A model generated the notes under the pieces. The model was not told the DNA's origin. It searched no databases and saw only the letters and a list, made by a program, of their open reading frames with translations. Shown piece by piece: positions 2,418 through 53,251 of a DNA stretch of 53,792 bases (positions within the stretch are counted from its first letter, which is position 1; every line of letters begins with the position of its first letter). The stretch comes from a bacterium (GTDB lineage Bacteria > Patescibacteriota > Microgenomatia > Daviesbacterales > UBA10151), in contig JAUSJM010000013.1 in NCBI GenBank assembly GCA_030647265.1, forward strand, positions 1 to 53,792, written 5' to 3'. The position numbers were made by a program, and so were the translations under genes.

Positions 2418-3050
2418 TCAAGGTGTCCAACTTTCATAGGTATAACAGTTGTTGCTGAAAGCTATACATCCGTAGGTAGTGTTAGCTCGAAGGTTAGCAG
2501 CATGACCGGAAGAAGCAATCCAGACAGGAACCACACCTTGATAGTTTGAGTTCATGGCAATATTTTCCACAATTTTATGATACGAGGGATAAGGAAGATT
2601 CTTGCTGTTTACTCTGTTAGTAAAACCATCATGGTTAAAGTTAGCAGTGACTTCAGAAGCCCTGACAGCAGCAAAGTTACAAGTGTATAAATCAGTTTTA
2701 ACCTCTGCTAAACCCTGGGACTGTCGATAATCATTGATCTGCTTCATTATATAATCCCTTTGGGAGAGGGTAGGTAATGAGGTGGGAGTTATTGGAATTT
2801 TGGTAGGTGTAGGAGTAGAAACTTTTGCTGGGGTTAATGTAGGAGTTAAGGTAGGTTTAGATATTGGCTTTACAGGCAAAGAGGGGATAATAGGCACTGG
2901 AGGTATAGTTGGTATACTGGGCAGTGGCATGGCCTGTGAAAACTTTTCACCTTCCCACATGGAGTGTGGGAACTCAAATTTAGATAAAACTCCCAATATT
3001 AAGGGAGTAGATAATAGTATGGAAACAAAAATGGCAGGCAGTATGGGCAA
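2418..3050 (-). CDS. CAP/SCP-domain surface protein with Pro/Thr-rich linker
   Basis: N-terminal hydrophobic segment, PTLTPT linker, INDYRQSQGL...FNH...ENIA...WIASSGHAANL CAP motifs. Confidence 0.85.
   Translation of the reverse strand: MPILPAIFVSILLSTPLILGVLSKFEFPHSMWEGEKFSQAMPLPSIPTIPPVPIIPSLPVKPISKPTLTPTLTPAKVSTPTPTKIPITPTSLPTLSQRDYIMKQINDYRQSQGLAEVKTDLYTCNFAAVRASEVTANFNHDGFTNRVNSKNLPYPSYHKIVENIAMNSNYQGVVPVWIASSGHAANLRANTTYGCIAFSNNCYTYESWTP
2944..2972 (+). repeat. REP family A copy in frame in the CAP gene
   Basis: TTTTCACCTTCCCACA-TGGAG-TGTGGGAA; identical to the RAYT1-flanking repeat except the 5-nt loop is reverse-complemented; encodes FPHSMWEGEK. Confidence 0.9.
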
Positions 3051-3165
3051 AGCTGAAGGATAATATAAGGCAGTTAAAAATCTTTGTCAAACTAAACATG
3101 TAGGTGATTTTAATAATCTTTATCTTTGTAAAAGTAAAAGGATTTTATGAACCTGTGTTATAATC

Positions 3166-3516
3166 TTGGATAAGATGAAAGAGCAAGTAAGTGAAAGAGC
3201 AATCACTTCCGATCAATATTTGATCCAAGCTAATTGTCCTCACCGTTACCGTGATGGGCTTCCATTAAAATGTACCGCAGCTAGCGGGCGCTGCAAGCTA
3301 CGCGAAGCTTTATCCTCACCCAACCCCTTTTGTGAAGGATCTAGACTTAGCACCCGTGCATGTCCTATTGTGAGTGAGGTTTTACATCAACTCGTAACAA
3401 TACAACTTCACGACGACCGTATATCAGTTAACCTAGTTGAAACATTGATGAGTGAGATTATTGGACAACAACCAATATCTTCTCTTAAAGAAAACGCCAA
3501 CCTGTTTAAAAAATAA
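3166..3516 (+). CDS. Hypothetical protein with a Cys-rich central segment
   Basis: ORF fills the gap between the CAP and ABC genes; five Cys; no recognisable family. Confidence 0.5.
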   Translation: MDKMKEQVSERAITSDQYLIQANCPHRYRDGLPLKCTAASGRCKLREALSSPNPFCEGSRLSTRACPIVSEVLHQLVTIQLHDDRISVNLVETLMSEIIGQQPISSLKENANLFKK

Positions 3517-5340
3517 TTATTGGTAACCTTTAGCCTGGAGTTTAAAAAGAGAGGCATATTGACCATCTAATTTCATTAAACTTTGGTGTTCTCCTGATTC
3601 AGTAATAGCTCCATTTTTAATAACATAAATTTTATCAGCATTCCTCACTGTGGAAAAACGGTGGGAGATGATAACAACGGTTTTTTCTTTGGAAAGCCTT
3701 TCCACTCTGCTAAAAATCTCTGATTCTGCCTTGGCATCAATAGAAGCTGTGGGCTCATCAAGTACTAATACCGGAGCATTTCTAAAAAAGGCTCTGGCCA
3801 AAGCGATCTTTTGCCATTGCCCACCTGACAACTCAATCCCTTCCTCAAAGGTTTTACCCAGCATCTGTTCATATCCTTTATCTAAAGTTTTAATCATCCG
3901 ATGAGCTCCGGCGGAGGTAGAGGCTTTGATCACCTCAGCCAGTCCAGCTTCTTTGTAGGATCTTCCAAAAGCAATATTCTCCCGGACTGTATGATCATAC
4001 TTATTAAAATCCTGGAAGAGGATTCCCAAAGCCTTGTACCACCCTTCCAAATCAAGATCTTTAATGTTTACTCCGTTGATTAGAATCTCACCCCCATCCA
4101 CATCATAAAACCTGGCTAAAAGCTTGATAACGGTAGATTTACCTGCTCCGTTTTCTCCCACAAATGCCACTTTCTCTCCAGACTCTATCACTAAAGAAAA
4201 CCCCTTGAGGATATACTTTTCACTCTCCGGATATTTAAAATCAACATTTTTAAATTCAATTCTGGGAGCTTTAGCCAGATTTAAAGCCACAGGATGTTCT
4301 GGAATCTTAATTATAGATTCCAGCTCCAAAACCTCAAAGATGTTTTTTATATACAGACTGTTATCAAAAATTCCATTGATGTTTCTAAATAGCCCTCCTA
4401 AACCATTTTGAAAGTTAGAAACTACCCCGGTATAAAAGTTGATATCACCAACAGTCACTTTTTTGGTTAAAGCCTCAAAGATAACAAAGATTTCTACTCC
4501 TACAAACACTGCTGTAGAAAGACCATTAAAGATTAGATTCAAAAAGTAGTTCCTTTTTGCCAAGCCGGTATTATCCTCATAAAACTTCTGCTGAATACCT
4601 TGGATCTCTTTAATAAATTGTTTTGCTAAACTAAAAAGTTTTATCTCTTTGGCCTCTCTGGGACCCTGGAGGATATGCTGCAGGTAACCATGTCTTTTCC
4701 TATAAGGAGTGTTGTCAGACCAAATTCCCCAGGCCAGTTTAGATTGCTTAGACTGATTAATAAACTCAGGAATAGCTACTAAAGACACTAAAACCACCAA
4801 AAACCAGTTCAGCTTAGCAATAGCCACAAAGGCTATCATTACTTGGAGTAAATTCTGAAAGCCAAAGAAAAGTTGGTCTACCAGCTGCTGGGGACGGTAA
4901 TTATAACTTTCCCGAGCTTTATCTATAAGATCCCTAAATTTGCTGTTTTCAAAGTAATGGACATCCAAAGAAGTAATTTTATTCAACATCAGTTCACTAA
5001 TGACCATCGGAACCTTAGTCCAAAGTATTCGTTCCACTAAGTCCTGAGTCCTGAAGGCTACCTCCTGGAAAAAATAAGTGGCAACCCGAAGGGCGAGAAG
5101 CGGATAAAACTTGCTGGGATCAAAAGGGGTTCCGCTTACCACTCCCACCACCAAATCAATCACCAGTTTATAAATATAGATATTGATAAAGGGGATAAAG
5201 GCAGGGACCAAGGTAGAACCAGCAGCTCCTAAAAAGAGCCAGCGGTCCACTTTCCAAACCAGCTTTAAAAGCTGCCAGGAAACTTTAGCAGTATCTTTAA
5301 TTTGATCAAGCTTTTTTGTCGGGGTTTGTTCGGGTTCCAT
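3517..5340 (-). CDS. ABC exporter, fused permease/ATP-binding protein
   Basis: N-terminal TM domain; Walker A GENGAGKS, LSGGQWQKIALAR, VLDEPTA, ISHR motifs. Confidence 0.95.
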   Translation of the reverse strand: MEPEQTPTKKLDQIKDTAKVSWQLLKLVWKVDRWLFLGAAGSTLVPAFIPFINIYIYKLVIDLVVGVVSGTPFDPSKFYPLLALRVATYFFQEVAFRTQDLVERILWTKVPMVISELMLNKITSLDVHYFENSKFRDLIDKARESYNYRPQQLVDQLFFGFQNLLQVMIAFVAIAKLNWFLVVLVSLVAIPEFINQSKQSKLAWGIWSDNTPYRKRHGYLQHILQGPREAKEIKLFSLAKQFIKEIQGIQQKFYEDNTGLAKRNYFLNLIFNGLSTAVFVGVEIFVIFEALTKKVTVGDINFYTGVVSNFQNGLGGLFRNINGIFDNSLYIKNIFEVLELESIIKIPEHPVALNLAKAPRIEFKNVDFKYPESEKYILKGFSLVIESGEKVAFVGENGAGKSTVIKLLARFYDVDGGEILINGVNIKDLDLEGWYKALGILFQDFNKYDHTVRENIAFGRSYKEAGLAEVIKASTSAGAHRMIKTLDKGYEQMLGKTFEEGIELSGGQWQKIALARAFFRNAPVLVLDEPTASIDAKAESEIFSRVERLSKEKTVVIISHRFSTVRNADKIYVIKNGAITESGEHQSLMKLDGQYASLFKLQAKGYQ

Positions 5341-5397
5341 CCTACCATGCTAACATAAACTCTAGATATTTCAAGAAGAAAATATATAATCCCAACA

Positions 5398-5434
5398 ATT
5401 TTCACCTTCCCACACTCCATGTGGGAATCTAAAA
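5398..5434 (+). repeat. REP family A copy downstream of RAYT1
   Basis: ATTTTCACCTTCCCACACTCCATGTGGGAATCTAAAA with TTCCCACA/TGTGGGAA stem; exact 37-bp duplicate at 5618-5654. Confidence 0.92.
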
Positions 5435-5437
5435 ACT

Positions 5438-6103
5438 TTACACCTCTTCATCAATAGATAGGGAATACAGGGTAGGATCTTCTATCTCTGTTTCTTCAAC
5501 AAAGGCTTGATAACTTAAATTAGGATTAGTCTTAGAAAAATAAGAGATAATTGTCTCAATATCACAAAATGGGTGTTGTTTACCAGAGATATAAGCTCTA
5601 TATGATGAATAGTAGTTATTTTCACCTTCCCACACTCCATGTGGGAATCTAAAACCCAAGGGATTCCTATGGATGTATTTAGAAAGCTGAAGGAGATATT
5701 CTTCATTTTCAATTAACCTGGCTTTAAATGGACCCTGAAAGAGAGAGCCAACACGTTCATATTTGGTGTTGAAGTACCTTGTATAGCTATCAGAAACTTT
5801 CCTCAAAAAAAGTGTCACGCCTCCGTCCTCAAGCTGTTGAATTAAGAGGTGAAAATGGTTTGGCATTAAACAAAAACAGTATATTCTTATCATCTCTTTT
5901 TGATCTTCTATCTTCTTCATCTTTATCACACCTCTTCTAAAATCTGAAAGTTTCATTGGGACTGGTTCTCTTCGGTAATAGTCCAAGGTTTCCAAAAAAC
6001 GCCAATAATCTCTCTTACCCATAAAAATTCCTCTCTTTTCCACACCTCTGTTGTAGATATGATAAAACTCACCAGAAACAAAAGGAGGATTTAACATACT
6101 CAT
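5438..6103 (-). mobile_element. REP-associated tyrosine transposase (RAYT; IS200/IS605 Y1 HUH family), copy 1
   Basis: YHIYNRG, CLMPNHFHLL (HUH), YFNTKYERVGSLFQGPFKA, YIHRNP, SSY; flanked by family A palindromes. Confidence 0.92.
5618..5654 (+). repeat. REP family A copy in frame inside RAYT1
   Basis: Exact duplicate of 5398-5434; encodes FRFPHGVWEGEN between the HRNP and YSSY motifs. Confidence 0.92.
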
Positions 6104-6110
6104 ATGATAT

Positions 6111-6152
6111 ATTTCACCTTCCCACACTTCAAGTGGGAACACGAAAATAATT
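6111..6152 (+). repeat. REP family A variant upstream of RAYT1
   Basis: ATTTCACCTTCCCACACTTCAAGTGGGAACACGAAAATAATT; the last 21 nt match murC 46631-46651 exactly. Confidence 0.85.
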
Positions 6153-6186: not shown

Positions 6187-7308
6187 ATGACTAGTGAAGA
6201 AAAATTTAATCTCATCACCAGAAACTTAGAGGAGGTTTTAACTCCGGAAGAGCTTAAGGCTTTAATTGAATCTGGAAAACCCTTAATCCACTATATAGGT
6301 TTCGAAATTTCCGGAAAAGTTCACTTAGGTCAAGGTATCGCTGTCATGCAAAAAGTCAAAGAGATCCACGAGTCCGGAGCAAAGACAATTATCTGGTTAG
6401 CAGATTGGCATGGGTGGATTAACAACAAACTTGATGGCACACTAGAGACCGCTCAAAAGATGGCCCGAGAATTTTTTTCTGAAGCCATGAAAGCTGCCTA
6501 TATCTGTGTTGGAGGAAATCCGGATGACTTAGTTTTTATGCAGGGAAGTGAGATTTATAGTGAGCACCCTGAATTTTGGGCCAAAACAATTAAAGTGGCA
6601 AAAGGCACAACAATTTCCCGAATGATGCGTTCCACAGATATTATGGGAAGAGTAGCTGGGGAATCCTCAAACACTGCCACACTTTTTTATCCTGCTATGC
6701 AGGCTGCAGATATTTTTCAACTAGGAGTCAATATCGCCCATGCAGGAACTGATCAAAGAAACGTTCATATCGTCGCCAGAGATGCAGCAAAGGACTTGGG
6801 ATTTGAAAAACCAATTGCCATTCACCATCACCTTATCATGGGTCTAAAACCCTTAGGAGAAAAGAACGACCAGAATTTTAATAAAAGCTTGTCTTATGAA
6901 GAGAAAGCTGATCTTATAACAGCTTTAAAGATGAGTAAATCCAAGCCCGATACAGCTCTTTTTATTACTGATTCTCCTGAAGAGATACAAAGAAAGGTTA
7001 ACAATGCATATTGCCCGGAGGGGGAAGTGGAATTTAATCCTATTTTAGATTGGACCAAATATTTAATCTTTTACAATCCCACCACTTTTACTGTTAAAAG
7101 AGATGAAAAGTGGGGAGGGGATCTAACATACACTTCTTATGAAGATCTGGAAAGGGATTATGCTGAGAAAAAACTCCACCCTCAGGATTTAAAAACTACT
7201 GTAGCTGAATGGTTAATAGAAAAGCTGGAACCAGCGAGGATTTACTTTGAAGATCCTCAAAGAAAAGCAGCTTTAGAGGAAATTGAAAGACTTACTGTAA
7301 AGAGTTAG
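6187..7308 (+). CDS. tyrS: Tyrosyl-tRNA synthetase, archaeal/eukaryotic type
   Basis: YIGFEISGKVHLGQ, YPAMQAAD, GTDQR, KMSKS, AYCP..EVEFNPI, LHPQDLK; no S4-like C-terminal domain. Confidence 0.93.
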   Translation: MTSEEKFNLITRNLEEVLTPEELKALIESGKPLIHYIGFEISGKVHLGQGIAVMQKVKEIHESGAKTIIWLADWHGWINNKLDGTLETAQKMAREFFSEAMKAAYICVGGNPDDLVFMQGSEIYSEHPEFWAKTIKVAKGTTISRMMRSTDIMGRVAGESSNTATLFYPAMQAADIFQLGVNIAHAGTDQRNVHIVARDAAKDLGFEKPIAIHHHLIMGLKPLGEKNDQNFNKSLSYEEKADLITALKMSKSKPDTALFITDSPEEIQRKVNNAYCPEGEVEFNPILDWTKYLIFYNPTTFTVKRDEKWGGDLTYTSYEDLERDYAEKKLHPQDLKTTVAEWLIEKLEPARIYFEDPQRKAALEEIERLTVKS

Positions 7309-9793: not shown

Positions 9794-12700
9794 ATGGATA
9801 ACACAGTAGAGATTGGAACTGGAATACCTACTACCGAGGCAAGTAGGACTGCAGAGAAGCGTGAAACTCGGGAACAAGTTGTGGAGGCGTTAAATGCCTC
9901 CTATGCTGTTTTGGAAAAAGTTCCTGAAGATAAATTAACCCCAAAAGAACAAGCAGCCCGAGAATTGATCCGTGGAGCCAAGGCTAAAACAATCGACCAA
10001 GACAGATTTTATTATCTTAATCATTTTAAGGACGAGCAGGGCCACGAGTATCGTCAACGGGAATACATGCCGGTTGACGAACTGATTGATTTTTTAACCG
10101 AACAGATTAAAAGCGATAAGCTTTCCGAGGATGAGGTGAACCAGTACCAAGATTACCGTGGCATCCTTATTAGAAACAGTAAGTCTTATTACCGAATTCC
10201 CAACCGAACCCAACGAGCACGTCTAAATGCCAGGGTAAAACAAGAATACGACAGGATACAAGTTGATCCGAGGCTCACAACAGGCAATCCTCAAGAGGAC
10301 TATTTCCAAGCCTCCCAAACTATTACTAAACGCCGGGAACTTGTACCTCCACCTAAACAAAAAGAGAAACAGCAAGAGGATCAGCATCATCAAGATAACC
10401 AGCATGATGACGGAAGTACTGTTCAGGAAATTCGCCGGGATTTTGTGATTGCCAGACGGGACGTCGATATTCGAAAGCGCGCAGCTGAGCTTGCCGAAGA
10501 GCAACTTAGAGGTGAGATGCGTCGAGGGAGTGCCTTTAATCCATTAAATTGGCCAAGAAAGATCCGCTTAAGAATCCTCGAAGAATATTACCGCCAACAA
10601 TATATAGGTAGAGCTGAAAGCGCGATGATTGCCAATAACAACTCTTACCTAGATATGGACGTTGTGCATAACGCCATGAAGAATGCCAATGAAAATATTG
10701 ATAGGGAGAGAGTAGCCGGACGATCCAAGGTAGAGCAAATTAAAACCCAGGCTCAAGAGGGAATTAACCTTGAAGGGACCACTCTTCGTGAAGCAACCGG
10801 AGCCCTCAAGGAATCCATCATGAGTGACATTATCAGGCCGATTGTAAACGGCGCCGACAGCCCTCTTCTTGGTGCACAAATTCAAAATGCGGCTGATGTA
10901 CAAAGAGTTCTAAGAGCCTTTGTCGAGCAACACCAAAATAATCCTGATGTCCAAGCTATTTTTGGTAGAGATGCCACACAATTTGGGAGACTGGCAAATT
11001 ATTTTGCTTCTGATATCTTAGAAACAGCTGAGGCAGTTCGAGCAGACTTAGCTGCTCACAAATATGCCATAGAACAACTAAACGAGGTTGTTAGAATCCA
11101 ACTGGCCAACACCAGTTGGGCAGCCGAGACTCAAGCCAACTTTAATCAGGTAGACCGGGCTGTAGCTTGGGCAGAAAGACACAGGCTAACAGGAATTTTA
11201 ATTAACCCCGCCACTATCGGAATTGCCTTTTCTTTGGGTACCTATGGATTAATGCGTGCAGCAAACATGGGTGCCAAAGCTATGGTCTGGGTTCCCGGAG
11301 CAGGGATGCTTGCAGGAGGACTTTTTGCTGCTTTCCGCCGAAATTATGATCTCAAAGTCGACAGAGCTTCTTATCAGGTAGAAAATGTTGCCTATAATGC
11401 TCAATTTGATTCCAACACCGCCCACCGACGAGAAGCGCTGCAAAGATATGATTACAATGTCGCCTCAGTAAATGAACTCTTAAATGGCGGCGGGCAGGAA
11501 ATGCTTACCACCACAGACCGTAGGTCAATGCAGGAATTACTGGCGGCTGATTTGACTGTCGCAGCGAACCAAGAAGCGCTGACCCGCCGAATGACTGAGA
11601 TTAGGACACGTCTTGATTTTTCTGCCCGTGAGAAAGTTGATTTAATTAAGTTTACAGGAGGACGTCCAGATGTTTATGGCCGAACCTTGGTAGAACAAGG
11701 CCGGCTAGAGTTAGTCAAAGCCATAGTTCAAAGTACCAAAGCTTTAAGAGATGCTGGTCTTTCGGAAGTTGATATTACGGCACTGTCTAATCGCTTTTCC
11801 GGAGAGTGGAGCAATCGTTTTACTAAAAACCGTGAGCAACAGGACCGGGCATTTGCTCACTACAGATTAAGAAATGCTATCGGAGCGGGAGTTTTCGCAG
11901 GTGTTGCAGGATTTGCCGGGGGACTAATTACTCAAGAAGCTTGGGCCCAAATAGGCAGACACGTCTTTAATCAGCAAATCGGGGATACGGTACTGGAGAA
12001 ACTGACCAAGGGAGATCTTTCCTGGAATCCCTTGGACTGGATGAACCCAACCAGAGCCCAAGGATTTGCTTCGGATACCGCTAAAGAGCTTTATAACCAC
12101 CCTGGAAATACTCCAATTAGCCACGATCTAACCATGCGCACCTTCTTTGATCAAAGCACAGGAGAACACAAAGTAGACTTCCTTGATACCAACCAGCACC
12201 AAATAACTGGGCCACCCATGCATCTTACCCCAGATGGTCATATTATTACCTCCGGAGATGTTAGTAACCTTCCTTCTAATGTTAGACAATTTGTGGAAGG
12301 ATCAGGATGGCAAAATCATGCTTATACCAATCCAGATTTGAATATTCATGAAAAAATTCAGGATTATATAAGTGGGAACCAACATGAAATCTTTACCCAT
12401 GGCAATACAATCATTAATTTAGACGCACCAAATCACACCATTGCCATTGAGGACTGGCCAACCAAAACCATCGCTCATGGAATAATTAATCCTGACGGCA
12501 GCTTTACTTTTGATAAAGCCAACCCTGAAAATGCCAACATTGACTGGACTGTATTCACCGACCGTCTTCATAATGAAGCTTGGGGAATTCATACTGAAAT
12601 CATTAACTCTCAAGCTTCGGGAGGAACAGTTTTGGACCAGCTCCTTAGCCAAAACCCAGATGCCCTAAAAACCCGAGGCATTATTGAAACTGATCAGTTT

Positions 12701-23504: not shown

Positions 23505-23544
23505 CTAACCCCAGGGGTTAGTTAGCTTCCAACCTCAGGATGTT
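23505..23544 (+). repeat. REP family B palindromes upstream of RAYT2
   Basis: CTAACCCC-A-GGGGTTAG perfect palindrome plus degenerate AACCTCAGGATGTT. Confidence 0.75.
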
Positions 23545-40512: not shown

Positions 40513-40517
40513 ACAAG

Positions 40518-42298: not shown

Positions 42299-42397
42299 GA
42301 CAAAACTTTCCCAGAACCCGGGACCTAACTTTATTATGGCCAGATTTTTTTTAAGGTGTCAATGAGGAAGGGGAGACTAGTCTGATATAATCACCTC

Positions 42398-43075
42398 ATG
42401 ATTTCAACTATTCTCGTTTATGCAAATACGAAGGAACGCCAGCAGGAAGCAGAAAAGATGCTTTTGGAAGCAGGATTTAAACAAAATCATCCTGATCTTT
42501 TATGGTTGGGGGAAGAGGAGAAGCTGGGAATAGAGCAAGTTCGGCAGATCCAGCAGTTTTTAAGCTTAAAACCTTATCAAGCCAGAGGTCATGCTGTAGT
42601 TTTAATATCAGCAGATCACTTAACTTTGGAAGCTCAAAATGCTTTTTTAAAAACTCTGGAGGAGTCGCCGGAAGAAACCCTTATCATCTTAGGAGCATCT
42701 TCAGAAGATGTCTTTTTACCGACAATCCTCTCCCGCTGCCGGATTTCTTACCCGGAAAAAGCTTCTTCCCAACAAAAGAATCTTTCTGAAAAAGAGGCTT
42801 TAGAGATAGAAAAACTTTTAAAATCTTCCCTGGAAGAACGTTTTGTTTTTGTTGAAAAACTCAAAGAAAAAGAGGAGTTTTTGTTAAATTTAATTATCTA
42901 CTTCAGGCACAAACTTCTAGAAAAATCCTTAGGTGTCAATACAAATCCACCTCCGAGGTGGAAGGCAGAAACTATCCAGAGTTTTCTAAAAGACCTTCTT
43001 CAAGCGGAGAAGTGGAAAGAACAAAATATCAGCATTAGAGCTATCCTGGAGCACCTCATGCTAAAAATGCCTTGA
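42398..43075 (+). CDS. holB: DNA polymerase III delta-prime-like protein (short)
   Basis: HPD, IEQVR, AQNAFLKTLEE, LPTILSRC. Confidence 0.8.
   Translation: MISTILVYANTKERQQEAEKMLLEAGFKQNHPDLLWLGEEEKLGIEQVRQIQQFLSLKPYQARGHAVVLISADHLTLEAQNAFLKTLEESPEETLIILGASSEDVFLPTILSRCRISYPEKASSQQKNLSEKEALEIEKLLKSSLEERFVFVEKLKEKEEFLLNLIIYFRHKLLEKSLGVNTNPPPRWKAETIQSFLKDLLQAEKWKEQNISIRAILEHLMLKMP
42946..42962 (+). repeat. Palindrome in frame in holB
   Basis: TCCACCTC-C-GAGGTGGA; its reverse complement matches 49776-49792 over 17 nt. Confidence 0.8.
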
Positions 43076-43130
43076 TTAGAGCTTTAGAACAACCTAATCT
43101 TTTATGACATTCTTGCATAAAATAGCTTAA

Positions 43131-45876
<2,746 letters not shown>

Positions 45877-45925
45877 ATATTTTAAATCTCACCATTTCTT
45901 GTCCAAATAAGCTAAAATACCACTA

Positions 45926-47230
45926 ATGAAGCATGTACATTTCTTAGGGATCGGGGGAAGCGGAACATCAGCTGCTGCTGCCATTGCTCAAGCTCAGGGA
46001 TATAAGATCAGTGGCTGTGACAAAGACCCTCAAGCTGACTTCCTAAAATTTTTTCCTAAAGAACAAATTTTTATTGAACATTCACCAAAACACTTAAAAG
46101 GTGTCAATATTTTAGCTACCACTCCGGCAGTTTTTTCTTTAGATCCCCATAATCCCGAGCTTTTGGAAGCCCAGAAGAGAGGTTTGGAAGTTCTTACCTG
46201 GCAGGAATTTATGGGAAAATATTTGGAAAAAGATAAGTTTGTTATTGCTATTTGTGGTACCCATGGGAAAACCACTACCACAGCGATGAGCAGTCTACTT
46301 TTAGAAGAAGCTAAATTTGATCCAACTGTGGAGCTGGGGTCAGTTATTCCTCAGTGGGGTACTAATTACAGAATAGGAAAAGGGAAGCCTGTCCTGAGCG
46401 GAGTCGAAGGATATTTTATTACTGAAGCTGACGAGTTTAGTGATAATTTTTTAGCCAGCCATCCGGATATCACCATTCTAACTTCTGTTGAAATGGATCA
46501 CCCTGAGTTTTTCAAAGATTTTACTGACTACAAAAAAAGTTTCCAGAAATTTCTTTCCCAAACTAAAAAAACAATTATTGCTAACCTGGCAAACTCAGGA
46601 GTAAAAGAAGTTTTAGCTTCCCACTCGTCGAGTGGGAACACGAAAATAATTGACTATTCAGACAAACTTATCGATTTTCCACTTCAGGTGTTGGGACAAT
46701 TCAACATCCTAAATGCATCTGCTGTTTACCAACTGGGTCTAGCCCTAGGAATTAACCCGGAAATTATCAAAAAAAGCCTCAGTTCTTACCAGGGGACCGG
46801 CAGAAGGTTTGAATACTTGGGAAAAGTAGGTAAAACAGAGATCTACTCTGACTTCGGCCATCACCCCACAGAAATTAAGCTAACCATAAAAGCAGCCAGA
46901 GAGAAGTTCTCTGACAAGAAAATTCTTCTGGTATTCCAACCCCATATGTTTTCCCGAACCAAGGCTTTATTTACTGATTTTGTAAAAGTATTAAGTAATG
47001 TTCCTGTAGATAAAACATATCTTTTGGATATATACCCCTCCAGAGAAATAGACACTGGTTTGGTAAGCAGTCAGGAGTTAGTAGAAGCTGTCAATAAACC
47101 TAACTTCCGATATTTAGAAAAAGAAAAGATTAAAGAAACACTCCATCATGAAGCTTCAGATTATGACATCATCATCTTTATGGGGGCAGGGGATATTGAT
47201 AAGATAGCCAGAGGATTTGTAAACCAATAG
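45926..47230 (+). CDS. murC: UDP-N-acetylmuramate--L-alanine ligase
   Basis: HFLGIGGSG, GTHGKTTTT, EADE, DFGHHPTE, FQPH, MGAGDI. Confidence 0.93.
   Translation: MKHVHFLGIGGSGTSAAAAIAQAQGYKISGCDKDPQADFLKFFPKEQIFIEHSPKHLKGVNILATTPAVFSLDPHNPELLEAQKRGLEVLTWQEFMGKYLEKDKFVIAICGTHGKTTTTAMSSLLLEEAKFDPTVELGSVIPQWGTNYRIGKGKPVLSGVEGYFITEADEFSDNFLASHPDITILTSVEMDHPEFFKDFTDYKKSFQKFLSQTKKTIIANLANSGVKEVLASHSSSGNTKIIDYSDKLIDFPLQVLGQFNILNASAVYQLGLALGINPEIIKKSLSSYQGTGRRFEYLGKVGKTEIYSDFGHHPTEIKLTIKAAREKFSDKKILLVFQPHMFSRTKALFTDFVKVLSNVPVDKTYLLDIYPSREIDTGLVSSQELVEAVNKPNFRYLEKEKIKETLHHEASDYDIIIFMGAGDIDKIARGFVNQ
46388..46411 (+). repeat. 24-bp REP-like insert in frame in murC
   Basis: CCTGTCCTGAGCGGAGTCGAAGGA encodes PVLSGVEG between GKGK and YFITEADE; related to murD 48788-48821. 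Confidence 0.85.
46618..46651 (+). repeat. REP family A-related palindrome in frame in murC
   Basis: TTCCCACTCG-T-CGAGTGGGAA plus tail; AGTGGGAACACGAAAATAATT is identical to 6132-6152. Confidence 0.9.
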
Positions 47231-47233
47231 CTT

Positions 47234-48370: not shown

Positions 48371-49729
48371 ATGTCGGAAAATCATTTCAAAAATAAAAAG
48401 GTGCTCATCCTGGGTCTGGGGTTAAACCAGGGGGGAGTGGGGTCAGCTAAGTTTTTTACCCAATTAGGTGCCAAAGTCAAAGTCACCGATATAAAAACAG
48501 CCGGAGAACTTCAGCCATCCTTAGATCAGCTGAAGGAATTTCCTATGATTGAATATGTTTTGGGAGAGCACCGTTATGAAGACTTAGATTGGGCAGATAT
48601 TATCATCAGAAACCCCTCCTTAAAACCTGATAACCCCTATAGGATTTATGCTGAAAAATCAGGTAAGAGGGTAGAGATGGACATGGGAATTTTTCTACAG
48701 TTTATTAAACCTGAGCAGATTATCGGAGTTACCGGAACCAAGGGCAAGTCCACCACTGCTTCGCTAATTTATGAGGCCCTAAAAGAAGCTTGCACTGAGC
48801 AATCGTTAGCGAGTCGAAGTGTAGTTTTTGCCGGTAATATCGGTAAAAGTGTTTTAGATACCATCCCTATGGTAAAAAAAGACACTTTAGTGATTTTAGA
48901 ACTCTCTTCTTTCCAGTTGGAAGCCTTTGAGGAACATCAGATTTCTCCCAAATGGGCAGTGATTACCAATATTTTTCCCGACCACTTAAACTACTATCAA
49001 ACTATAGAACAATATACTGCTGCCAAAAGAGTCATTGCCCAGCATCAAAAACCGGAAGATTTCTTATTCATTAAAAGTGGTGACAAAGTTGTGGACAACA
49101 ATAATTTTCTTCAAGGGCTCGAAGGACAGATCATCAGGTTTTCACCATCTGACCTGCCGGCTGAATTCCAGCCAAAACTGCCGGGAGAACATAACCTTGC
49201 TAATATAGCAGCTGCCCTGGCTGTCTCTCAAAAAATCAGTTTAGCTTCGCAAGAGGACCTCTTGGAGGCTCTAGAAAATTTTCCTGGAGTTGAGTTCAGA
49301 TTGCAGCTTATTTACAGCAAAAGGGATCTGAGAATCTACAACGACAGCGCTGCTACCAACCCTGATGCTACTATCCAAGCTTTAAAAAGTTTACCCAACT
49401 CTATTTTAATCACCGGGGGAGTGAATAAAAATTTACCTTATGAGGAGATGGCCCAAACCATCAATAAATATGCCAAGGCGGTCTTTTTCCTGGAAGGCAC
49501 AGCTACAGAAGAAATACTACAGATGTTAAAATCCATCGGGCATCAGTCAGCAGATCAAAATATGGGAATTTATAATAATTTAGAAAAACTTTTAAGGGAT
49601 ATTAAAGACATTTTAAAACACGGAGATGTTATTTTATTCTCTCCAGGAGCAGCTTCCTTTAACCTCTTCCAAAATGAATTTGATCGGGGCAGAAAATTCA
49701 ATGAAGCAGTAGAAAAAGTATTCGGATGA
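48371..49729 (+). CDS. murD: UDP-MurNAc-L-Ala--D-Glu ligase
   Basis: GVTGTKGKSTT, ELSSFQL, PDHLNY, NDSAATN, SPGAASF..F.NEFDRG. Confidence 0.95.
   Translation: MSENHFKNKKVLILGLGLNQGGVGSAKFFTQLGAKVKVTDIKTAGELQPSLDQLKEFPMIEYVLGEHRYEDLDWADIIIRNPSLKPDNPYRIYAEKSGKRVEMDMGIFLQFIKPEQIIGVTGTKGKSTTASLIYEALKEACTEQSLASRSVVFAGNIGKSVLDTIPMVKKDTLVILELSSFQLEAFEEHQISPKWAVITNIFPDHLNYYQTIEQYTAAKRVIAQHQKPEDFLFIKSGDKVVDNNNFLQGLEGQIIRFSPSDLPAEFQPKLPGEHNLANIAAALAVSQKISLASQEDLLEALENFPGVEFRLQLIYSKRDLRIYNDSAATNPDATIQALKSLPNSILITGGVNKNLPYEEMAQTINKYAKAVFFLEGTATEEILQMLKSIGHQSADQNMGIYNNLEKLLRDIKDILKHGDVILFSPGAASFNLFQNEFDRGRKFNEAVEKVFG
48788..48821 (+). repeat. REP-like insert in frame in murD
   Basis: GCTTGCACTGAGC-AATCGTTAGC-GAGTCGAAGTG; shares the CTGAGC...GAGTCGAAG arms with the murC insert; encodes ACTEQSLASRS. 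Confidence 0.8.
49243..49270 (+). repeat. Palindrome inside murD
   Basis: AGCTTCG-CAAGAGG-A-CCTCTTG-GAGGCT with a perfect 7-bp core. Confidence 0.55.
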
Positions 49730-49937
49730 AAATTCTGATCATTATAGGATAGATTTCATAGTCTCAGATCTAGCTTTCCACCTCGGAGGTGGCAGGCTAA
49801 TTCCCTATGTACTAGAGGTTAACATTATTCCTGGTTGGACTCCAGAAAGTTTATTTCCCAAGGCAGCCAAAGCAGCAGGAATCAGTTTTGAGGAACTAAT
49901 AAAAAAACTAATTCAAATTAGCCTCAAATTGGGCTGA
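49726..49937 (+). pseudogene. ddl: D-Ala-D-Ala ligase remnant with a large internal deletion
   Basis: ATG overlapping the murD stop gives MKILIIIG*; another frame from 49746 gives RIDF...PYVLEVNIIPGWTPESLFPKAAKAAGISFEELI, the Ddl C-terminus. Confidence 0.85.
49776..49792 (+). repeat. Palindrome in frame in the ddl remnant
   Basis: TTCCACCTCGGAGGTGG, same family as the holB copy. Confidence 0.8.
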
Positions 49938-49943
49938 AAAAGC

Positions 49944-49972
49944 TTGCGCTTTTATCTTAAAAAAGGTACAAT
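49944..49972 (+). promoter_or_regulatory. Putative gyrA promoter
   Basis: TTGCGC-17bp-TACAAT. Confidence 0.55.
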
Positions 49973-50011
49973 AACTATGCCCAACAGGGCGTTTTTCTTG
50001 CCTTAACTTCT

Positions 50012-52606
50012 ATGTCTAACATCGGAAAAGTGGAGCTAGTACCAATAGTTGATGAGATGAAACGGTCGTACCTTGACTATGCCATGTCTGTCATTGTAGC
50101 CCGGGCTCTTCCTGATGTCCGGGATGGCCTAAAACCGGTCCAGAGAAGGATTGTTTATGCCATGTCCCAGCAAGGATTACATCATACCTCGAGGCATCAA
50201 AAATCAGCAGCTGTAGTGGGTGAAGTTTTGAAAAACTACCACCCCCATGGTGATGTCCCGGTCTATGATGCCATGGTGAGAATGGCCCAGGATTTTTCCA
50301 TGAGGTACATGCTCGTTGATGGCCAAGGTAACTTTGGTTCAGTAGATGGAGATTCTCCGGCTGCCATGAGGTACACCGAAGCCAGGCTTTCTGCTATTGC
50401 TGATGAGCTTTTAAGAGATATCCACAAAGATACTGTTGATTTCATCGACAACTACTCCGGCACCACCCAAGAACCGGTCTGGCTGCCTTCAGTAATCCCT
50501 AATCTTTTACTTAACGGGGCCTCCGGAATTGCTGTAGGCATGGCTACCCAAATCCCTCCTCACAATCTAGGTGAGGTCATAGATGCTTTGGTTTACATGA
50601 TTGACCGGGCCACTAAGGAAACAGGCAAGAGCTTACCTGCCGACAAAGCAGGGCAACAGGCCCGCTTCGCCGACTCTGCGAGGCGAGTAAAAGATGGAGA
50701 AGTACTGCCTAGTGCCTCCGACCTAGTACCTAAATTTACCAGTGAAGCCAATGTAGAGGAGTTTATGCAGTTTATCAAGGGTCCTGACTTCCCAACCGGG
50801 GGTTCAATATATGATCATTCCGAGATCTTAAATGCCTATGCCACCGGGAAAGGGAGGATTGTCATGCGGGCCAAAGCAGAGATTGAAGAGGCTAAAAATG
50901 GCAGGTTTGACATCATCATCACTGAACTCCCTTATCAGGTAAATAAAGCCAACCTGGTCACCAGAATTGCCGAGTTGCACAAAGAAAAAAAGATCGAAGG
51001 CATAGCAGACTTACGTGACGAGTCAGACAGGCGGGGCATGAGGGTAGTCATCGAACTCAAGCGTGACGCCAAACCCCAATCCCTTTTAAACAACCTTTTT
51101 AAACACACCGCCATGCAATCTGTCTTTAACGTTAATACAGTGGCTTTGGTGGACGGAGTGCCACGTCTCTTGTCCTTAAAGCACGTCCTAGAAGAGTTTG
51201 TTGCCCACAGACAGCGAGTGGTTAGGAGAAGATCGGAATTCGAACTCTCGGAAGCCAAAGCCCGGGAACACATTCTGGAAGGCTTAAAGATCGCTGTTGA
51301 TAACATTGATGCTGTCATTGAAACCATCAAAAAGTCTAAGGATGCTGATGAAGCCAAAGTAAACTTGATTACCAGGTTTAAATTAAGTGAGCTCCAGGCT
51401 TTAGCCATCTTGGATATGCAGCTTCGCCGCTTAGCAGCTTTAGAGAGACAAAAAATCGAGGACGAGCTAAAGATGATCCGGGAAACCATCGCTTATTTGG
51501 AAGATCTTTTAGCCCACCCGGAAAAAATTCTTAAAGTTATTAAAGATGAACTGCTTAAGGTTAAGGAAAGATACGGGGATGACCGGAAAACCAGGGTTTA
51601 CAAACAAAAAGTGGGAGAGTTTTCTGAAGAAGATCTCATTGCTGATGAACCAACCATTGTCACTATCACTGATGGCGGTTATATCAAAAGACAACAACCA
51701 AGCACTTTTCGCGTTCAGGCCCGGGGTGGTAAAGGAGTCTCCGGTATTACCACCAAGGAAGCAGACGCTGTGAGCCATATCTTCTTCACCCAAACTTTGG
51801 ACAACATCCTTTTCTTCACCGATAAGGGCAGGACTTTTCAACTCAAGGTCTGGGAAATTCCCGAGGCTTCCAGAATAGCTAAAGGACAGGCCATTGTTAA
51901 CCTTATAAATATTGATCAGGGAGAAAAGATCACTGCCATCTTAACTTTAAGACAAAAGGATAAGATAAAGTTTCTCTTTATGTGTACTAAAGAAGGTAAT
52001 GTTAAGAAAACTCCCATTGAGGAGTATGCTTCTATCAGAAGAAACGGGCTTATTTCCATTAAGTTAGACAGCCAGGACACCTTAGGCTGGGTGACTCCCA
52101 CCAACGGGGAAGATGAGTTGATTATTATTTCCAAACTCGGGCAATCCATCAAATTCTCAGAAAAGGGTGTCCGTCCCACTCACCGTGATACTTCAGGAGT
52201 GAGAGGCATCAAGCTGGGCAAAGAGGACAGTGTTGTTTCTCTTAATAAAATCCATGATCCTAAAGCAGATCAGTTGTTGGTAATTATGGCCAACGGGCTA
52301 GGCAAGAAAACTCTAGTTTCTGCCTGGAGCAGGCAGGGGAGGGGGGGACAAGGAGTAAAGGCTGCCCAGGTGACAGAAAAAACCGGGGCCATTGTGACAG
52401 CCCAACTGGTAGACAAAGACGGAGACACTTTAGTTTTGACCTCCAATAAAGGACAGATCATCAAGATCAATATTAAAGATGTCCCCACTTTACAAAGACA
52501 GACCCAAGGAGTGATACTAATGAGGATGAGAGAAGGCCTGCCTGGTGGTAAGGCAGGGGAGAGGGTAGCTGCCGCCACTATCATCTCAACTAAAGAAAAG
52601 GAATAA
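50012..52606 (+). CDS. gyrA: DNA gyrase subunit A
   Basis: [28 protein letters not shown] catalytic Tyr, GyrA-box QARGGKG, C-terminal beta-pinwheel repeats. Confidence 0.97.
50636..50688 (+). repeat. Two tandem palindromes in frame in a gyrA loop
   Basis: CCTGC-CGACAAA-GCAGG (50636-50652) and GCCCGCTTCGC-CGACTCT-GCGAGGCGAG (50660-50687). Confidence 0.85.
52537..52557 (+). repeat. 21-bp palindrome in frame near the gyrA 3' end
   Basis: CCTGCCT-GGTGGTA-AGGCAGG, a 7-bp stem; encodes LPGGKAG; same family as 50636. Confidence 0.85.
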
Positions 52607-52612
52607 GTTTAA

Positions 52613-52819
52613 TTGGAAAAGAAACTGACCACTTTTGCCATCATTTACTTTATTATCGGGCTCGTCTTTGCCATCTCTTTTGCTCTCTTTTATCACTGGC
52701 CAGGCCGCTCTTTTTTCAGCCCCGGGTTTTATGTGGTAGTCCTCACCTGGCCCATTCAGATCCCGGGATATCTTTCTGACTTCCAAATCTATGGTCTAGC
52801 CGGCAAAACCCTCATTTAA
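52613..52819 (+). CDS. Small two-TM membrane protein
   Basis: Two hydrophobic segments; immediately downstream of gyrA. Confidence 0.65.
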   Translation: MEKKLTTFAIIYFIIGLVFAISFALFYHWPGRSFFSPGFYVVVLTWPIQIPGYLSDFQIYGLAGKTLI

Positions 52820-52926
52820 TCCTGTGCTAAAATCAAAATTATGAAAGTGTTCACAATGTTAAATACTTTTTTGATAATAGTGTTGTTGAAGGCTCTAATT
52901 TACCTCTAACATCTTCCTAAGACGTT

Positions 52927-53229
52927 GTGATAAGAGGGAAGTTAATTGAAGTAGAAAACAAAATTGTCTGTGAAAAGAATCCTTGTCCAGATAGTATTAA
53001 AACTCGTTTCCTTCAGGATACCAATGACCCAAGCTATAAAATTCAACTAGTAAACAGCTTAGTAAATCCCAATTCCTGGGTTTTTAGATTAGATCTTAAC
53101 AATACATACACCTTTAAAGGAAAATTATGGAAAAAGCAGTATAGGGTTAGTAGAAATACTTCAGGCTATAGAACAGAGATTGGTCACTTTGAAATACAAA
53201 GCATCATAAACTCCAGCCCTCTTCAATAA
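52927..53229 (+). CDS. Hypothetical protein, possibly the 3' part of a degraded secreted-protein gene
   Basis: 100-aa ORF; an upstream ATG at 52841 opens a 22-aa hydrophobic frame that stops at 52909. Confidence 0.4.
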   Translation: MIRGKLIEVENKIVCEKNPCPDSIKTRFLQDTNDPSYKIQLVNSLVNPNSWVFRLDLNNTYTFKGKLWKKQYRVSRNTSGYRTEIGHFEIQSIINSSPLQ

Positions 53230-53230
53230 T

Positions 53231-53251
53231 ATCTAACCCCCGAGGTTAGAT
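53231..53251 (+). repeat. REP family B palindrome at the 3' end of RAYT3
   Basis: ATCTAACC-CCCGA-GGTTAGAT, 3 nt from the RAYT3 stop. Confidence 0.85.

What the first reader, a model, noticed from the sequence alone, without database searches (positions are those of the whole stretch)
2944..53251. RAYT-linked palindromes inserted in frame into housekeeping proteins across the window
Seen: three HUH/Y1 RAYT-like genes, each abutted by short palindromes, and about a dozen short palindromes inside coding frames (CAP gene, RAYT1, recG, rpsP, holB, murC x2, murD x2, ddl, gyrA x3). They fall into at least five recurring families: TTCCCAC..GTGGGAA; AACC/CACC..GAGGT; CTGAGC..GAGTCGAAG; CCTGC..GCAGG; GCCCGCTTCG..GCGAGGCGAG. 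Established: RAYTs bind and cleave cognate REPs, REPs are normally extragenic, and in-frame palindrome insertion is known for Rickettsia palindromic elements. Inference: in this compact genome a multi-family RAYT/REP system seeds 7-12-aa peptides into tolerant protein loops, acting as a genome-wide source of protein insertions. Only the first two families have a cognate RAYT in this window.
Basis: partly seen in the sequence, partly recalled or inferred. Interest (0 to 1): 0.9.

Follow-up and report, generated by a model that had tools for sequence, protein, structure and literature searches.

The report
In-frame palindromic repeats in housekeeping genes
A very small groundwater bacterial genome carries several families of short palindromic mobile repeats, some sitting next to their own transposase-like genes, and many copies lie in frame inside essential genes where they add short loops to the proteins, a phenomenon already known from Rickettsia and a few other bacteria.

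Summary
The core observation holds, but it is narrower than stated and not new in kind. The window has three Y1/HUH RAYT-like genes, and the 785-kb genome has six. Four of the six are flanked by a hairpin of a recurring repeat family (A, B, C, E).

I curated seven families with 55 copies genome-wide, and 38 copies lie inside ORFs of my own rough gene calls. Of the 18 copies that sit in ortholog-aligned stretches, 14 coincide with a gap in at least one of two related genomes. Only about 1% of aligned residues lie in such gaps. Insert lengths are 18-39 nt, or about 95 nt for family G. All keep the frame.

- **Stop codons:** the stop-rich family C is found only between genes.
- **Window cases that hold:** holB, gyrA (two sites), recG, the S16 tail, murC, murD, the CAP gene and RAYT1.
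- **Most short palindromes are ordinary coding sequence:** only 26 of 405 alignable ORF hairpins overlap an insertion.
gyrA 52320, murD 49675 and "ddl", which is really alanine racemase.
- **No RAYT link seen:** families D, F and G have no adjacent RAYT gene.

Intragenic REPs, notably in repair genes, were described by Di Nocera et al. 2013, and in-frame elements by the Rickettsia RPE work. This is a new member of a known kind. RAYT-driven mobility is inferred, not shown.

The parts
5438..6142 (-). RAYT-like gene 1. The likely true start is the ATG about 13 codons into the ORF.
   Evidence: Pfam Y1_Tnp E 1.1e-7. NCBIfam REP_Tyr_transpos is the best hit but scores 45.9 bits against a cut-off of 80. 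HUH and YIHxNP motifs are present.
23585..24262 (+). RAYT-like gene 2
   Evidence: Pfam Y1_Tnp. The AlphaFold model (pLDDT 83.8) has 4er8_A, a RAYT bound to a REP hairpin, as its top PDB fold match.
53255..53791 (-). RAYT-like gene 3, cut by the contig end
   Evidence: Pfam Y1_Tnp; alignment A1.
2952..2972 (.). Family A hairpin inside the CAP-domain ORF, just after the N-terminal hydrophobic segment (peptide FPHSMWE)
   Evidence: No ortholog was found in G012 or G005, so no indel test was possible.
5407..5427 (.). Family A hairpin, intergenic, 11 nt beyond the stop of RAYT 1
5627..5647 (.). Family A hairpin inside RAYT 1, just after the YIHRNP tyrosine motif (peptide FPHGVWE); it adds about 3 residues relative to the other RAYTs
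6119..6139 (.). Family A hairpin at the 5' edge of the RAYT 1 ORF, probably upstream of the true start
46618..46638 (.). Family A copy in the murC-type ligase (peptide LASHSSSGN). The length equals that of 11 orthologs, but the segment 218-239 has no counterpart in G015 and G006.
42926..42964 (.). Family B copy (hairpin 42946-42962 plus the tail AGGTGTCAATACAAA): a 39-nt in-frame insert in holB (peptide SLGVNTNPPPRWK)
   Evidence: Codon alignment to G012. The loop is 0-19 aa long among 9 relatives and G000 has the longest.
49778..49792 (.). Family B hairpin, intergenic between murD and gyrA
53230..53252 (.). Family C hairpin, 2 nt beyond the stop of RAYT 3
   Evidence: All 4 family C copies lie outside ORFs.
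23505..23521 (.). Hairpin CTAACCCCaGGGGTTAG upstream of RAYT 2 (single copy)
999..1030 (.). Family D copy in a true intergenic spacer
   Evidence: Both flanking ORFs align over their full length to separate genes of G012.
50661..50688 (+). Family D copy in gyrA (peptide [10 protein letters not shown]), inside a hypervariable loop
   Evidence: Against PDB 8s7k, query residues 202-247 face 6 residues. The loop is 0 to about 60 aa long in 25 relatives. The copy overlaps a gap against G005 (9 of 10 residues) but not in the G012 BLAST alignment.
52535..52555 (+). 21-nt in-frame insert in the gyrA C-terminal region (peptide GLPGGKA), carrying the hairpin CCTGCCT..AGGCAGG
   Evidence: It is absent from both G012 and G005.
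49246..49270 (.). Family E copy in the murD-type ligase (peptide ASQEDLLEA); it adds only 1 residue relative to 7 orthologs
25368..25464 (+). Diverged family G copy (about 95 nt, a long imperfect palindrome) in the C-terminal tail of ribosomal protein S16
   Evidence: It lies beyond the stretch that aligns to the relatives.
15852..15887 (+). Single-copy hairpin with a 13-bp stem in the recG wedge domain; its position coincides with gaps of 3 and 5 residues against G012
   Evidence: One arm resembles the 3' flank of RAYT 2.
10485..10499 (+). Family F-like 15-mer in the 1869-aa ORF; no gap in the weak G012 alignment
6901..6921 (+). 7-aa insert (EKADLIT) with a 7-bp hairpin in the class I tRNA synthetase gene. 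It is a gap against G012 but not against G005. Single copy.

Best explanation
The genome holds several families of short imperfect palindromes that behave as small mobile repeats (REP-like, 18-40 nt) and one longer palindromic element (about 95 nt). Four families (A, B, C, E) each flank their own paralog of a RAYT-like HUH/Y1 single-strand DNA transposase, in the REPtron arrangement. I infer that these enzymes recognise their cognate hairpin and spread it.

The genome is about 92% coding, so many new copies land inside genes. Copies survive there only if they add a multiple of three bases, carry no stop codon in the frame used, and fall in a loop that tolerates extra residues. They are then translated as 5-13 extra residues, or about 31-33 for family G.

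Shown here: the repeat families, their position next to RAYT genes, their in-frame position, and their coincidence with ortholog gaps and with coil loops. Inferred: that the RAYT proteins move them, that the inserted peptides are made, and that they are neutral.
For: RAYT-like genes:
- The genome has six, with invariant YHxxNRG, LMPNHFHLL and YIHxNP motifs.
- The best fold match of the gene 2 model is RAYT 4er8_A, with E 1.2e-4.

Cognate hairpins within about 60 nt of gene ends:
- A at RAYT 1.
- B at the C28 gene.
- C at RAYT 3.
- E at the C2 gene.
- A 16-nt perfect inverted repeat around the C18 gene.

Distribution in relatives:
- Families A-E have 0 copies in the closest genome held, G012.
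- G005 has some A, D and F copies.

Coincidence with ortholog gaps:
- 13 of 16 alignable copies overlap a gap against G012, and 14 of 18 overlap a gap against at least one relative. Background is 0.9-1.1% of residues.
- Codon alignments show clean inserts of 18, 39, 24, 27, 24, 18, 24 and 21 nt.
- A 27-nt D unit sits nested inside two G copies.

Filtering by stop codons:
- Stop-free frames are 41 of 42 for B and 59 of 66 for D, but 4 of 24 for C. All 4 C copies lie outside ORFs.
- No copy outside an ORF splits a gene where this could be tested.

Hairpins in lineage-specific insertions: G000-specific insertions of 5 aa or more carry a hairpin with stem >=7 in 13 of 59 cases, against 2.5 expected.

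Loop positions:
- The three inserts of the methyltransferase lie in coil with pLDDT 47-66.
- The holB and gyrA sites are hypervariable loops.

Assembly: an independent assembly of run X1 matches 33800-53792 with no differences over the long pieces.
Against: - No activity, transcript or peptide data exist. No RNA run was listed, so neither translation nor mobility is shown.
- Families D, F and G have no RAYT gene next to any copy.
- The NCBIfam RAYT model is matched below its curated cut-off (46-52 bits against 80), and sequence searches of the PDB found nothing.
- Copy numbers are low, 4-11 per family.
- No GTAG end tag is visible in families A-F.
- No target-site duplication or shared target motif is seen in 11 codon alignments.
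- Four of the 18 alignable copies overlap no gap (RAYT 1 internal, C13, C31, C28). The murC and murD copies, which could be compared only with other relatives, change length by 0-1 residue.
- The relatives belong to other genera and the host loops are hypervariable, so insertion in G000 cannot always be told apart from deletion elsewhere. For holB, G005 shows no gap.
- Gene calls are my own crude longest-ORF calls.
Confidence: 0.72

Rival explanations
1. The palindromes are chance or codon-driven features of ordinary coding sequence, not inserted DNA.
For: Most short hairpins are at chance level. There are 683 7-bp stems against 511-547 in dinucleotide shuffles, and 957 hairpins in all against 728-794 in codon shuffles. 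388 of 415 non-AT-rich hairpins are singletons. Only 26 of 405 alignable ORF hairpins overlap an insertion. gyrA 52320 and murD 49675 are of this kind.
Against: The families share 20-40 nt, flanks included, across unrelated genes. They are absent from G012 and coincide with ortholog gaps far above background. Families of 10 and 7 members do not appear in the shuffles.
Confidence: 0.05
2. The repeats are real mobile or recombining DNA, but RAYT proteins do not move them, at least for families D, F and G. They spread by template switching, gene conversion between copies, or another enzyme. RAYT adjacency of A, B, C and E only reflects local hitch-hiking.
For: No RAYT gene lies next to any D, F or G copy. 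The exact F 16-mer occurs in 111 of 301 genomes of the class, with 0 for the reversed control. G012 has a RAYT gene but none of the families. The murC, murD and C31 copies replace sequence without changing length, as conversion would. The literature states that CGTC-type REPs lack a dedicated transposase (PMC3733652 abstract).
Against: Four families each sit at the ends of a different RAYT paralog. In G005 a RAYT 3-type gene is flanked on both sides by hairpins with the same CCCGA loop but different stems, which looks like enzyme and hairpin evolving together. The assembly is 92% complete and in 35 contigs, so a cognate gene could be missing.
Confidence: 0.2
3. The intragenic copies are not translated. 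They would be removed from the RNA or skipped by the ribosome, as with the bypassing elements of some yeast mitochondria (recalled, not checked here).
For: None directly. The elements are GC-rich hairpins in an AT-rich genome, as those bypass elements are (recalled).
Against: Every intragenic copy keeps the frame and is free of stops. Measured insert lengths are all multiples of three. The stop-rich family C is excluded from ORFs. No copy was found splitting a gene. Removal or bypass would lift exactly these constraints.
Confidence: 0.02
4. The repeats are artefacts of assembling or binning a metagenome.
For: The genome is a 35-contig assembly from a groundwater metagenome. One Logan contig ends inside the holB B copy, and 8 contigs run on differently from there.
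Against: Long Logan contigs cover the murC, murD and gyrA copies and the intergenic B copy, and another covers the gyrA C-terminal insert and the family C hairpin, with 0 differences. However, the run is probably the sample of origin, so this is a second assembly and not a second sample. Copies sit inside otherwise conserved genes in frame.
Confidence: 0.01

Closest known systems
Intragenic REPs of GTAG/CGTC type and REPtrons (Di Nocera, De Gregorio and Rocco 2013, PMC3733652; abstract and passages read)
   Same: Both are short palindromic repeats, in several families per genome, with some families flanking RAYT genes. In both, some copies lie wholly inside ORFs of known proteins and often in replication or repair genes: uvrA there, and UvrA, GyrA, HolB and RecG here. 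That paper also argues for neutral insertion into loops or linkers.
   Different: No GTAG end tag is visible in families A-F. Copy numbers are 4-11 per family rather than tens to thousands. The share of copies inside ORFs is high (38 of 55 by my gene calls). The genome is only 0.78 Mb yet has six RAYT-like genes of about 215-235 aa. That paper's list of intragenic REPs is in a supplement that I could not read.
Rickettsia palindromic elements (RPE; read about only through passages of PMC3733652 and PMC10969869)
   Same: Both are palindromic repeats inserted in frame into unrelated housekeeping genes of a reduced genome. Several families exist and the peptides fall in places compatible with the fold.
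   Different: RPEs are about 100-150 bp, and no RAYT link was mentioned in the passages I read. Here most units are 18-40 nt, only family G (about 95 nt) is of RPE size, and four families sit beside RAYT-like genes. No sequence comparison with RPEs was made.
E. coli RAYT (TnpA-REP), PDB 4er8
   Same: It is the best structural match of the RAYT 2 model (E 1.2e-4, TM 0.63 on the target). The HUH motif and single tyrosine motif are shared, and the gene is flanked by its hairpins.
   Different: Identity in the fold alignment is 12%. Neither single-sequence nor profile searches find it. The proteins here have an extra C-terminal region of about 60-70 residues. IS200/IS605 TnpA structures score nearly as well.

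Membership tests
RAYT (REP-associated tyrosine transposase) | HUH motif and a single catalytic tyrosine in a Y1 transposase fold | tested here: met
   H89-F-H91 and Y149-I-H151 are invariant in 10 aligned sequences. Pfam Y1_Tnp is matched above its cut-off. Fold matches are to 4er8 and then to the IS200/IS605 TnpA structures.
RAYT (REP-associated tyrosine transposase) | Score above the curated NCBIfam equivalog cut-off (NF047646, 80 bits) | tested here: not met
   Scores are 45.9, 50.8 and 51.7 bits. It is the best-scoring family for all three window genes.
RAYT (REP-associated tyrosine transposase) | Gene flanked by copies of a genome-wide hairpin family (REPtron) | tested here: met
   Four of 6 genes are flanked by family A, B, C or E. 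One more is flanked by a 16-nt inverted repeat, and one by a single-copy hairpin.
RAYT (REP-associated tyrosine transposase) | Binds and cleaves its cognate single-stranded REP hairpin | not testable with these tools
   This needs purified protein and oligonucleotides.
REP (repetitive extragenic palindromes, GTAG/CGTC super-families) | Short imperfect palindrome of 20-40 nt that recurs in the genome | tested here: met
   Families A-E. They are over-represented against shuffles.
REP (repetitive extragenic palindromes, GTAG/CGTC super-families) | GTAG or CGTC tetranucleotide at one end | tested here: not met
   By inspection of the aligned copies of A-F, no GTAG end is present. CGTC occurs only inside G and in the low-copy GACGTCATTGCGAG repeat.
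REP (repetitive extragenic palindromes, GTAG/CGTC super-families) | Mostly extragenic, with tens to thousands of copies | tested here: not met
   There are 4-11 copies per family, and 38 of 55 curated copies lie inside ORFs. Outside-ORF copies are still about four times enriched: 17 of 55 in roughly 8% of the genome.
RPE-like in-frame palindromic elements | Copies lie in frame within conserved genes and are absent from orthologs | tested here: met
   14 of 18 alignable copies overlap a gap in G012 or G005.
RPE-like in-frame palindromic elements | Unit length of about 100-150 bp and homology to Rickettsia RPE families | not tested
   Only family G approaches this length. No RPE sequence was compared.
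MITE | Terminal inverted repeats with a target-site duplication | tested here: inconclusive
   The elements are palindromic throughout. No duplication is visible in 11 codon alignments, but the orthologs are too diverged at the DNA level to fix the ends exactly.

The most novel reading that the evidence does not exclude
In this bacterial class, REP-like repeats and their many RAYT-like paralogs would be a main source of lineage-specific loop insertions in core proteins. The same tolerant loops would be hit again and again in different genera by different palindromes, and old inserts would be overwritten by conversion from fresh copies. At least one unit, the 16-mer of family F, would spread across more than a third of the class and land in genes without any avoidance of coding sequence.
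Probability: 0.3. Interest if true: 0.7.

Novelty: new member of a known kind. Interest (0 to 1): 0.5.

Why it matters
Small-genome groundwater bacteria of this kind are known almost only from metagenomes, and their proteins often carry unexplained extra loops. Here a share of those loops can be traced to identifiable repeat DNA. Of 59 lineage-specific insertions of 5 aa or more, 13 carry a hairpin with stem >=7, against 2.5 expected.

- **Annotation and alignment.** Such inserts should be recognised as repeat-derived and not read as functional motifs.
- **A test system for RAYT specificity.** Six paralogs with different cognate hairpins sit in one 0.78-Mb genome.
- **Protein evolution.** It shows how a gene-dense genome absorbs mobile DNA: selection lets through only stop-free units whose length is a multiple of three.

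It does not open a new kind of mechanism.

Tried and rejected
- **K-mer scan.** An 11-mer repeat scan was too noisy; 14-mers worked.
- **BLAST clustering.** The first run timed out and was rerun on a smaller set.
- **Rfam.** Nothing in the window reached a gathering score.
- **PDB by sequence.** Neither RAYT 2 nor the 10-sequence profile found anything; only the fold search did.
- **Sequencing runs.** No RNA holder was listed. One DNA run, kept as contigs, holds the stretch. The low-likeness joints have short sides of 20-62 letters (all but one under 35) and I did not use them.
- **Repeat share of insertions.** I asked what share of lineage-specific insertions has a match of 16 nt or more elsewhere. 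The result was 25 of 59, against 23% for random coding segments and 13 of 39 in G012. That test discriminates poorly and I do not lean on it.
- **DNA uptake sequence.** I considered this for family F and rejected it because there are only 1-10 copies per genome.
- **recG hairpin as a family.** Its core 8-mer is not enriched in any family-like context.
- **Not attempted.** I did not run complex prediction or protein-DNA modelling.

Full report
**What the window is.** The window is one whole contig (C1) of a 784,921-base, 35-contig genome with about 41% G+C. One groundwater metagenome run holds 96% of the sampled words of the stretch searched (window 42301-52300). My own crude gene calls take the longest ORFs greedily. 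They give 887 ORFs and 92% coding sequence. All statements about 'inside an ORF' rest on these calls unless an ortholog alignment is cited.

**The RAYT-like genes.**
- Three ORFs in the window match Pfam Y1_Tnp above its cut-off: 5438-6142(-), 23585-24262(+) and 53255-53791(-, cut by the contig end).
- The genome has six such genes. The others are on C28, C18 and C2.
- An alignment of these six with four from two relatives shows invariant YHxxNRG, LMPNHFHLL (the HUH motif) and YIHxNP (the tyrosine).
- NCBIfam's REP-associated tyrosine transposase model is the best hit for the three window genes. It scores 46-52 bits against a curated cut-off of 80.
- Sequence searches of the PDB found nothing.
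- An AlphaFold model of gene 2 (mean pLDDT 83.8) has 4er8_A, the E. coli RAYT bound to a REP hairpin, as its best Foldseek match. IS200/IS605 transposases follow closely.
- Genes of this type occur in 25 of the 31 genomes searched (G000 and 30 relatives), at 0-12 per genome.

**Are palindromes more than chance?** As a class, only modestly.
- Perfect hairpins (stem >=7, loop <=12) number 957 in the genome, against 728-794 in six synonymous-codon shuffles.
- In five dinucleotide shuffles, 7-bp stems number 511-547 against 683 observed. Stems of 12 bp or more number 0-1 against 11 observed.
- Of 415 hairpins with non-AT-rich stems, 388 have no relative elsewhere in the genome.
- Of 405 ORF hairpins that can be aligned to the relative G012, 26 overlap a G000-specific insertion. 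By my count of the rows, 4 of the 35 window ORF hairpins that could be aligned do so.
- So a short palindrome in a reading frame is usually ordinary coding sequence.

**The recurring families.** A minority of hairpins belong to families that share 20-40 nt, flanks included.

| Family | Form | Copies |
|---|---|---|
| A | tttcacc-TTCCCAC-7 nt-GTGGGAA-cacgaa | 10 |
| B | TTCCACCTC-S-GAGGTGGAA plus a 15-nt tail | 7 |
| C | TATCTAACC-cccga-GGTTAGATA | 4 |
| D | CCCGCTTCGCC..GCGAGGCGAGC | 11 |
| E | GCAAGAGGnCCTCTTGGAG and a variant | 8 |
| F | CCTGAGCTTGYCGAAGG, not itself a palindrome | about 10 |
| G | about 95 nt, a long imperfect palindrome | 5 |

- Families of 10 and 7 members do not occur in the shuffles, where the maximum is 4-5. 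Those remaining shuffle families include the intergenic copies, which the shuffle leaves untouched.
- The closest genome held is G012, of another genus, with GyrA 83% identical. It has no copy of A-F by the same patterns.
- G005 has 2 A, 2 D and 8 F copies.
- The exact F 16-mer is present in 111 of 301 genomes sampled from the class. The reversed control is found in none.

**Link to the RAYT genes**.
- Family A lies at both ends of RAYT 1 (6119 and 5407) and once inside it (5627).
- Family B lies 43 nt upstream of the C28 gene. Its tail carries a TTGACA..TATACT promoter-like pair (read by eye, not scanned).
- Family C lies 2 nt after the stop of RAYT 3.
- Family E lies upstream of the C2 gene and once inside it. 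The internal copy forms an 8-residue insert that the nine other aligned RAYTs lack.
- The C18 gene is bracketed by a perfect 16-nt inverted repeat.
- RAYT 2 has a single-copy hairpin upstream.
- In G005 the gene closest to RAYT 3 has hairpins on both sides. They share the CCCGA loop of family C but have different stems.
- No D, F or G copy is next to a RAYT gene. The assembly is 92% complete, so a cognate gene could be missing.

**Are the intragenic copies insertions?** I fetched G012 and G005 whole and aligned all G000 ORFs to them.
- Only 0.9% (G012) and 1.1% (G005) of aligned residues lie in G000-specific insertions of 3 residues or more.
- Of the 55 curated copies, 17 lie outside ORFs and 18 lie in stretches aligned to an ortholog. 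The other 20 lie in ORFs but outside aligned stretches, meaning termini, weakly conserved genes or short ORFs.
- Against G012, 13 of 16 alignable copies overlap such an insertion. Against G005 it is 9 of 15, and against at least one of the two, 14 of 18.
- The four alignable copies that overlap no gap are the internal A copy of RAYT 1, the B copy on C13 (a 3-residue gap lies next to it), and the E copies on C31 and C28.

Codon alignments to G012 give clean inserts:

| Host | Family | Insert |
|---|---|---|
| Methyltransferase | A | 18 nt |
| holB, 42926-42964 | B | 39 nt |
| UvrA | D | 24 nt |
| C30 ORF 34549-35505 | D | 27 nt |
| Glu/Leu/Phe/Val dehydrogenase | E | 24 nt |
| Two ORFs | F | 18 and 24 nt |
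| gyrA C-terminal region, 52535-52555 | CCTGCCT hairpin | 21 nt |

- Family G adds 33 residues to a PolyA_pol-type nucleotidyltransferase and 31 residues to another ORF.
- Two G copies carry a nested 27-nt D unit, which marks D as a discrete mobile unit.
- I saw no target-site duplication.

**Window cases, one by one.**
- **holB:** supported. The site is a loop of 0-19 residues among nine relatives, and G000 has the longest. G005 shows no gap there.
- **gyrA 50661 (D):** lies in a loop that is 46 residues long against 6 in PDB 8s7k. That loop ranges from 0 to about 60 residues in 25 relatives. The copy is a gap against G005 only.
- **gyrA 52535:** supported against both relatives.
- **gyrA 52320:** no gap.
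- **recG 15852:** a unique hairpin with a 13-bp stem, coinciding with gaps of 3 and 5 residues against G012.
- **S16 (rpsP, 24945-25487 by Pfam):** a diverged G copy in the C-terminal tail, beyond the aligned part.
- **murC 46618 (A):** clearly a family copy by DNA. Its length equals that of 11 orthologs. In G015 and G006 residues 218-239 have no counterpart.
- **murD 49246 (E):** 30 nt nearly identical to other E copies, yet it adds only 1 residue. The second murD hairpin encodes a conserved motif.
- **CAP 2952 (A):** follows the N-terminal hydrophobic segment. No ortholog was available.
- **'ddl':** this is alanine racemase.

**Selection filter.**
- The share of stop-free frames is 41 of 42 for B, 59 of 66 for D, 50 of 60 for F, 38 of 48 for E, 43 of 60 for A and 20 of 30 for G. 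For C it is 4 of 24. Random segments give 0.59.
- All four copies of family C, the stop-rich one, lie outside ORFs.
- Copies outside ORFs sit in short spacers. Where the flanking ORFs could be compared, both align over their full length to separate genes, so none splits a gene.
- These facts fit translated, frame-preserving inserts that survive selection. They argue against removal at the RNA level or ribosomal bypass.
- Copies outside ORFs (17 of 55) are still about four-fold enriched over the 8% of the genome that is non-coding.
- Family F shows no avoidance of genes. Eight of 10 copies in G000 and 8 of 8 in G005 lie inside ORFs, which is about what random placement in a 92% coding genome would give.

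**Loops.**
- The class I methyltransferase on C5 carries three G000-specific inserts, at residues 46-64, 89-98 (family A) and 141-160.
- In an AlphaFold model built on 14 orthologs (mean pLDDT 81), all three are coil between secondary-structure elements. Ten-residue block means of pLDDT there range from 47 to 66.
- At the second site, orthologs of four other genera carry different palindromic sequences. This suggests repeated hits or turnover at one tolerant loop.
- Among 59 G000-specific insertions of 5 residues or more, 13 hold a hairpin with stem >=7 against 2.5 expected. Among 39 G012-specific ones, 5 do.

**Assembly check.** Logan contigs of run X1 match 33800-53792 with no differences over the eight long pieces.
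- One piece spans the murD copy, the intergenic B copy and the gyrA D copy.
- Another spans the murC copy.
- Another spans the gyrA C-terminal insert and family C.
- One contig ends inside the holB B copy, where eight contigs continue differently, as expected at a repeat.
- The run is probably the sample of origin, so this is a second assembly and not independent material.

**What is known.**
- Di Nocera and co-workers (PMC3733652; abstract and passages read) describe REP super-families and REPtrons. They also describe REPs wholly inside ORFs in several species, many of them in replication and repair genes including uvrA, and they discuss neutral insertion into loops.
- In-frame Rickettsia palindromic elements are summarised in that paper and in a 2024 review (PMC10969869, passages read).
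- A search for 'Candidate Phyla Radiation' with 'RAYT' gave 3 papers, judged off-topic from their titles and abstract openings.
- A search combining 'Rickettsia palindromic', 'in-frame' and 'Patescibacteria' gave none on this subject among the 15 listed.
- I did not verify the taxon of this genome with any tool.

**Verdict.** REP-like repeats, partly tied to RAYT-like genes, are inserted in frame into core genes of a very small genome. The kind is known. The instance is clean and comes with several cognate pairs: a new lineage, six RAYT paralogs, units as short as 18 nt, a repeat inside its own transposase gene, and a class-wide 16-mer. Mobilisation by the RAYT proteins and translation of the inserts remain inferences.

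Noticed in passing
window 15421-17487: recG reads as two ORFs, the wedge domain (15421-16098) and the helicase (16222-17487). They are separated by a single in-frame TAA at 16096-16098, and the same frame continues straight on. This could be a pseudogene, a strain variant or an error.
   Followed up: no
genome contigs C12 3439-3578, C26 ~57619, C27 ~35, C28 44334-44474, C35 1-141 and 1262-1401: A repeat of about 140 nt sits at several contig ends and twice in C35. It is probably a larger repeated element that breaks the assembly.
   Followed up: no
loci L010, L012, L016, L019 (gyrA of G002, G009, G006, G007): In four relatives the gyrA open frame is 1178-1303 aa and the match is split near residue 121-123. 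This looks like an intein-type insert, and G000 lacks it.
   Followed up: no
window 2952-2972, 5407-5427, 5627-5647; C5 24932; C13 4677; C26 16784: The 7-nt loop of the family A hairpin occurs in both orientations (ATGGAGT or ACTCCAT), while the flanks keep one orientation.
   Followed up: no
C24 33484-33514 and C7 70-100: A 27-nt family D unit is nested inside family G copies. The G copies on C9 and in the window lack it.
   Followed up: partly
C15 ~10790, C29 45491-45517, C30 36939-36971, C10 16581-16610: Short tandem runs (AAATTCG, TCAAAAG-like, AGTCTTC) occur inside or near ORFs. Two of them form G000-specific in-frame insertions.
   Followed up: no
window 26431-42298: A row of type IV pilus or type II secretion-like genes (PilO-like, T2SSF, two T2SSE ATPases) lies on the minus strand.
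   Followed up: no
C5 24796-24860, C33 2116-2175, C13 20444-20482: A low-copy repeat containing GACGTCATTGCGAG and CGAAGCAATC gives in-frame inserts of 13-20 residues (peptides such as ..RNDxDDVIVSGAKQS). One G012-specific insertion printed carries a similar peptide..RRNDPVI...
   Followed up: partly
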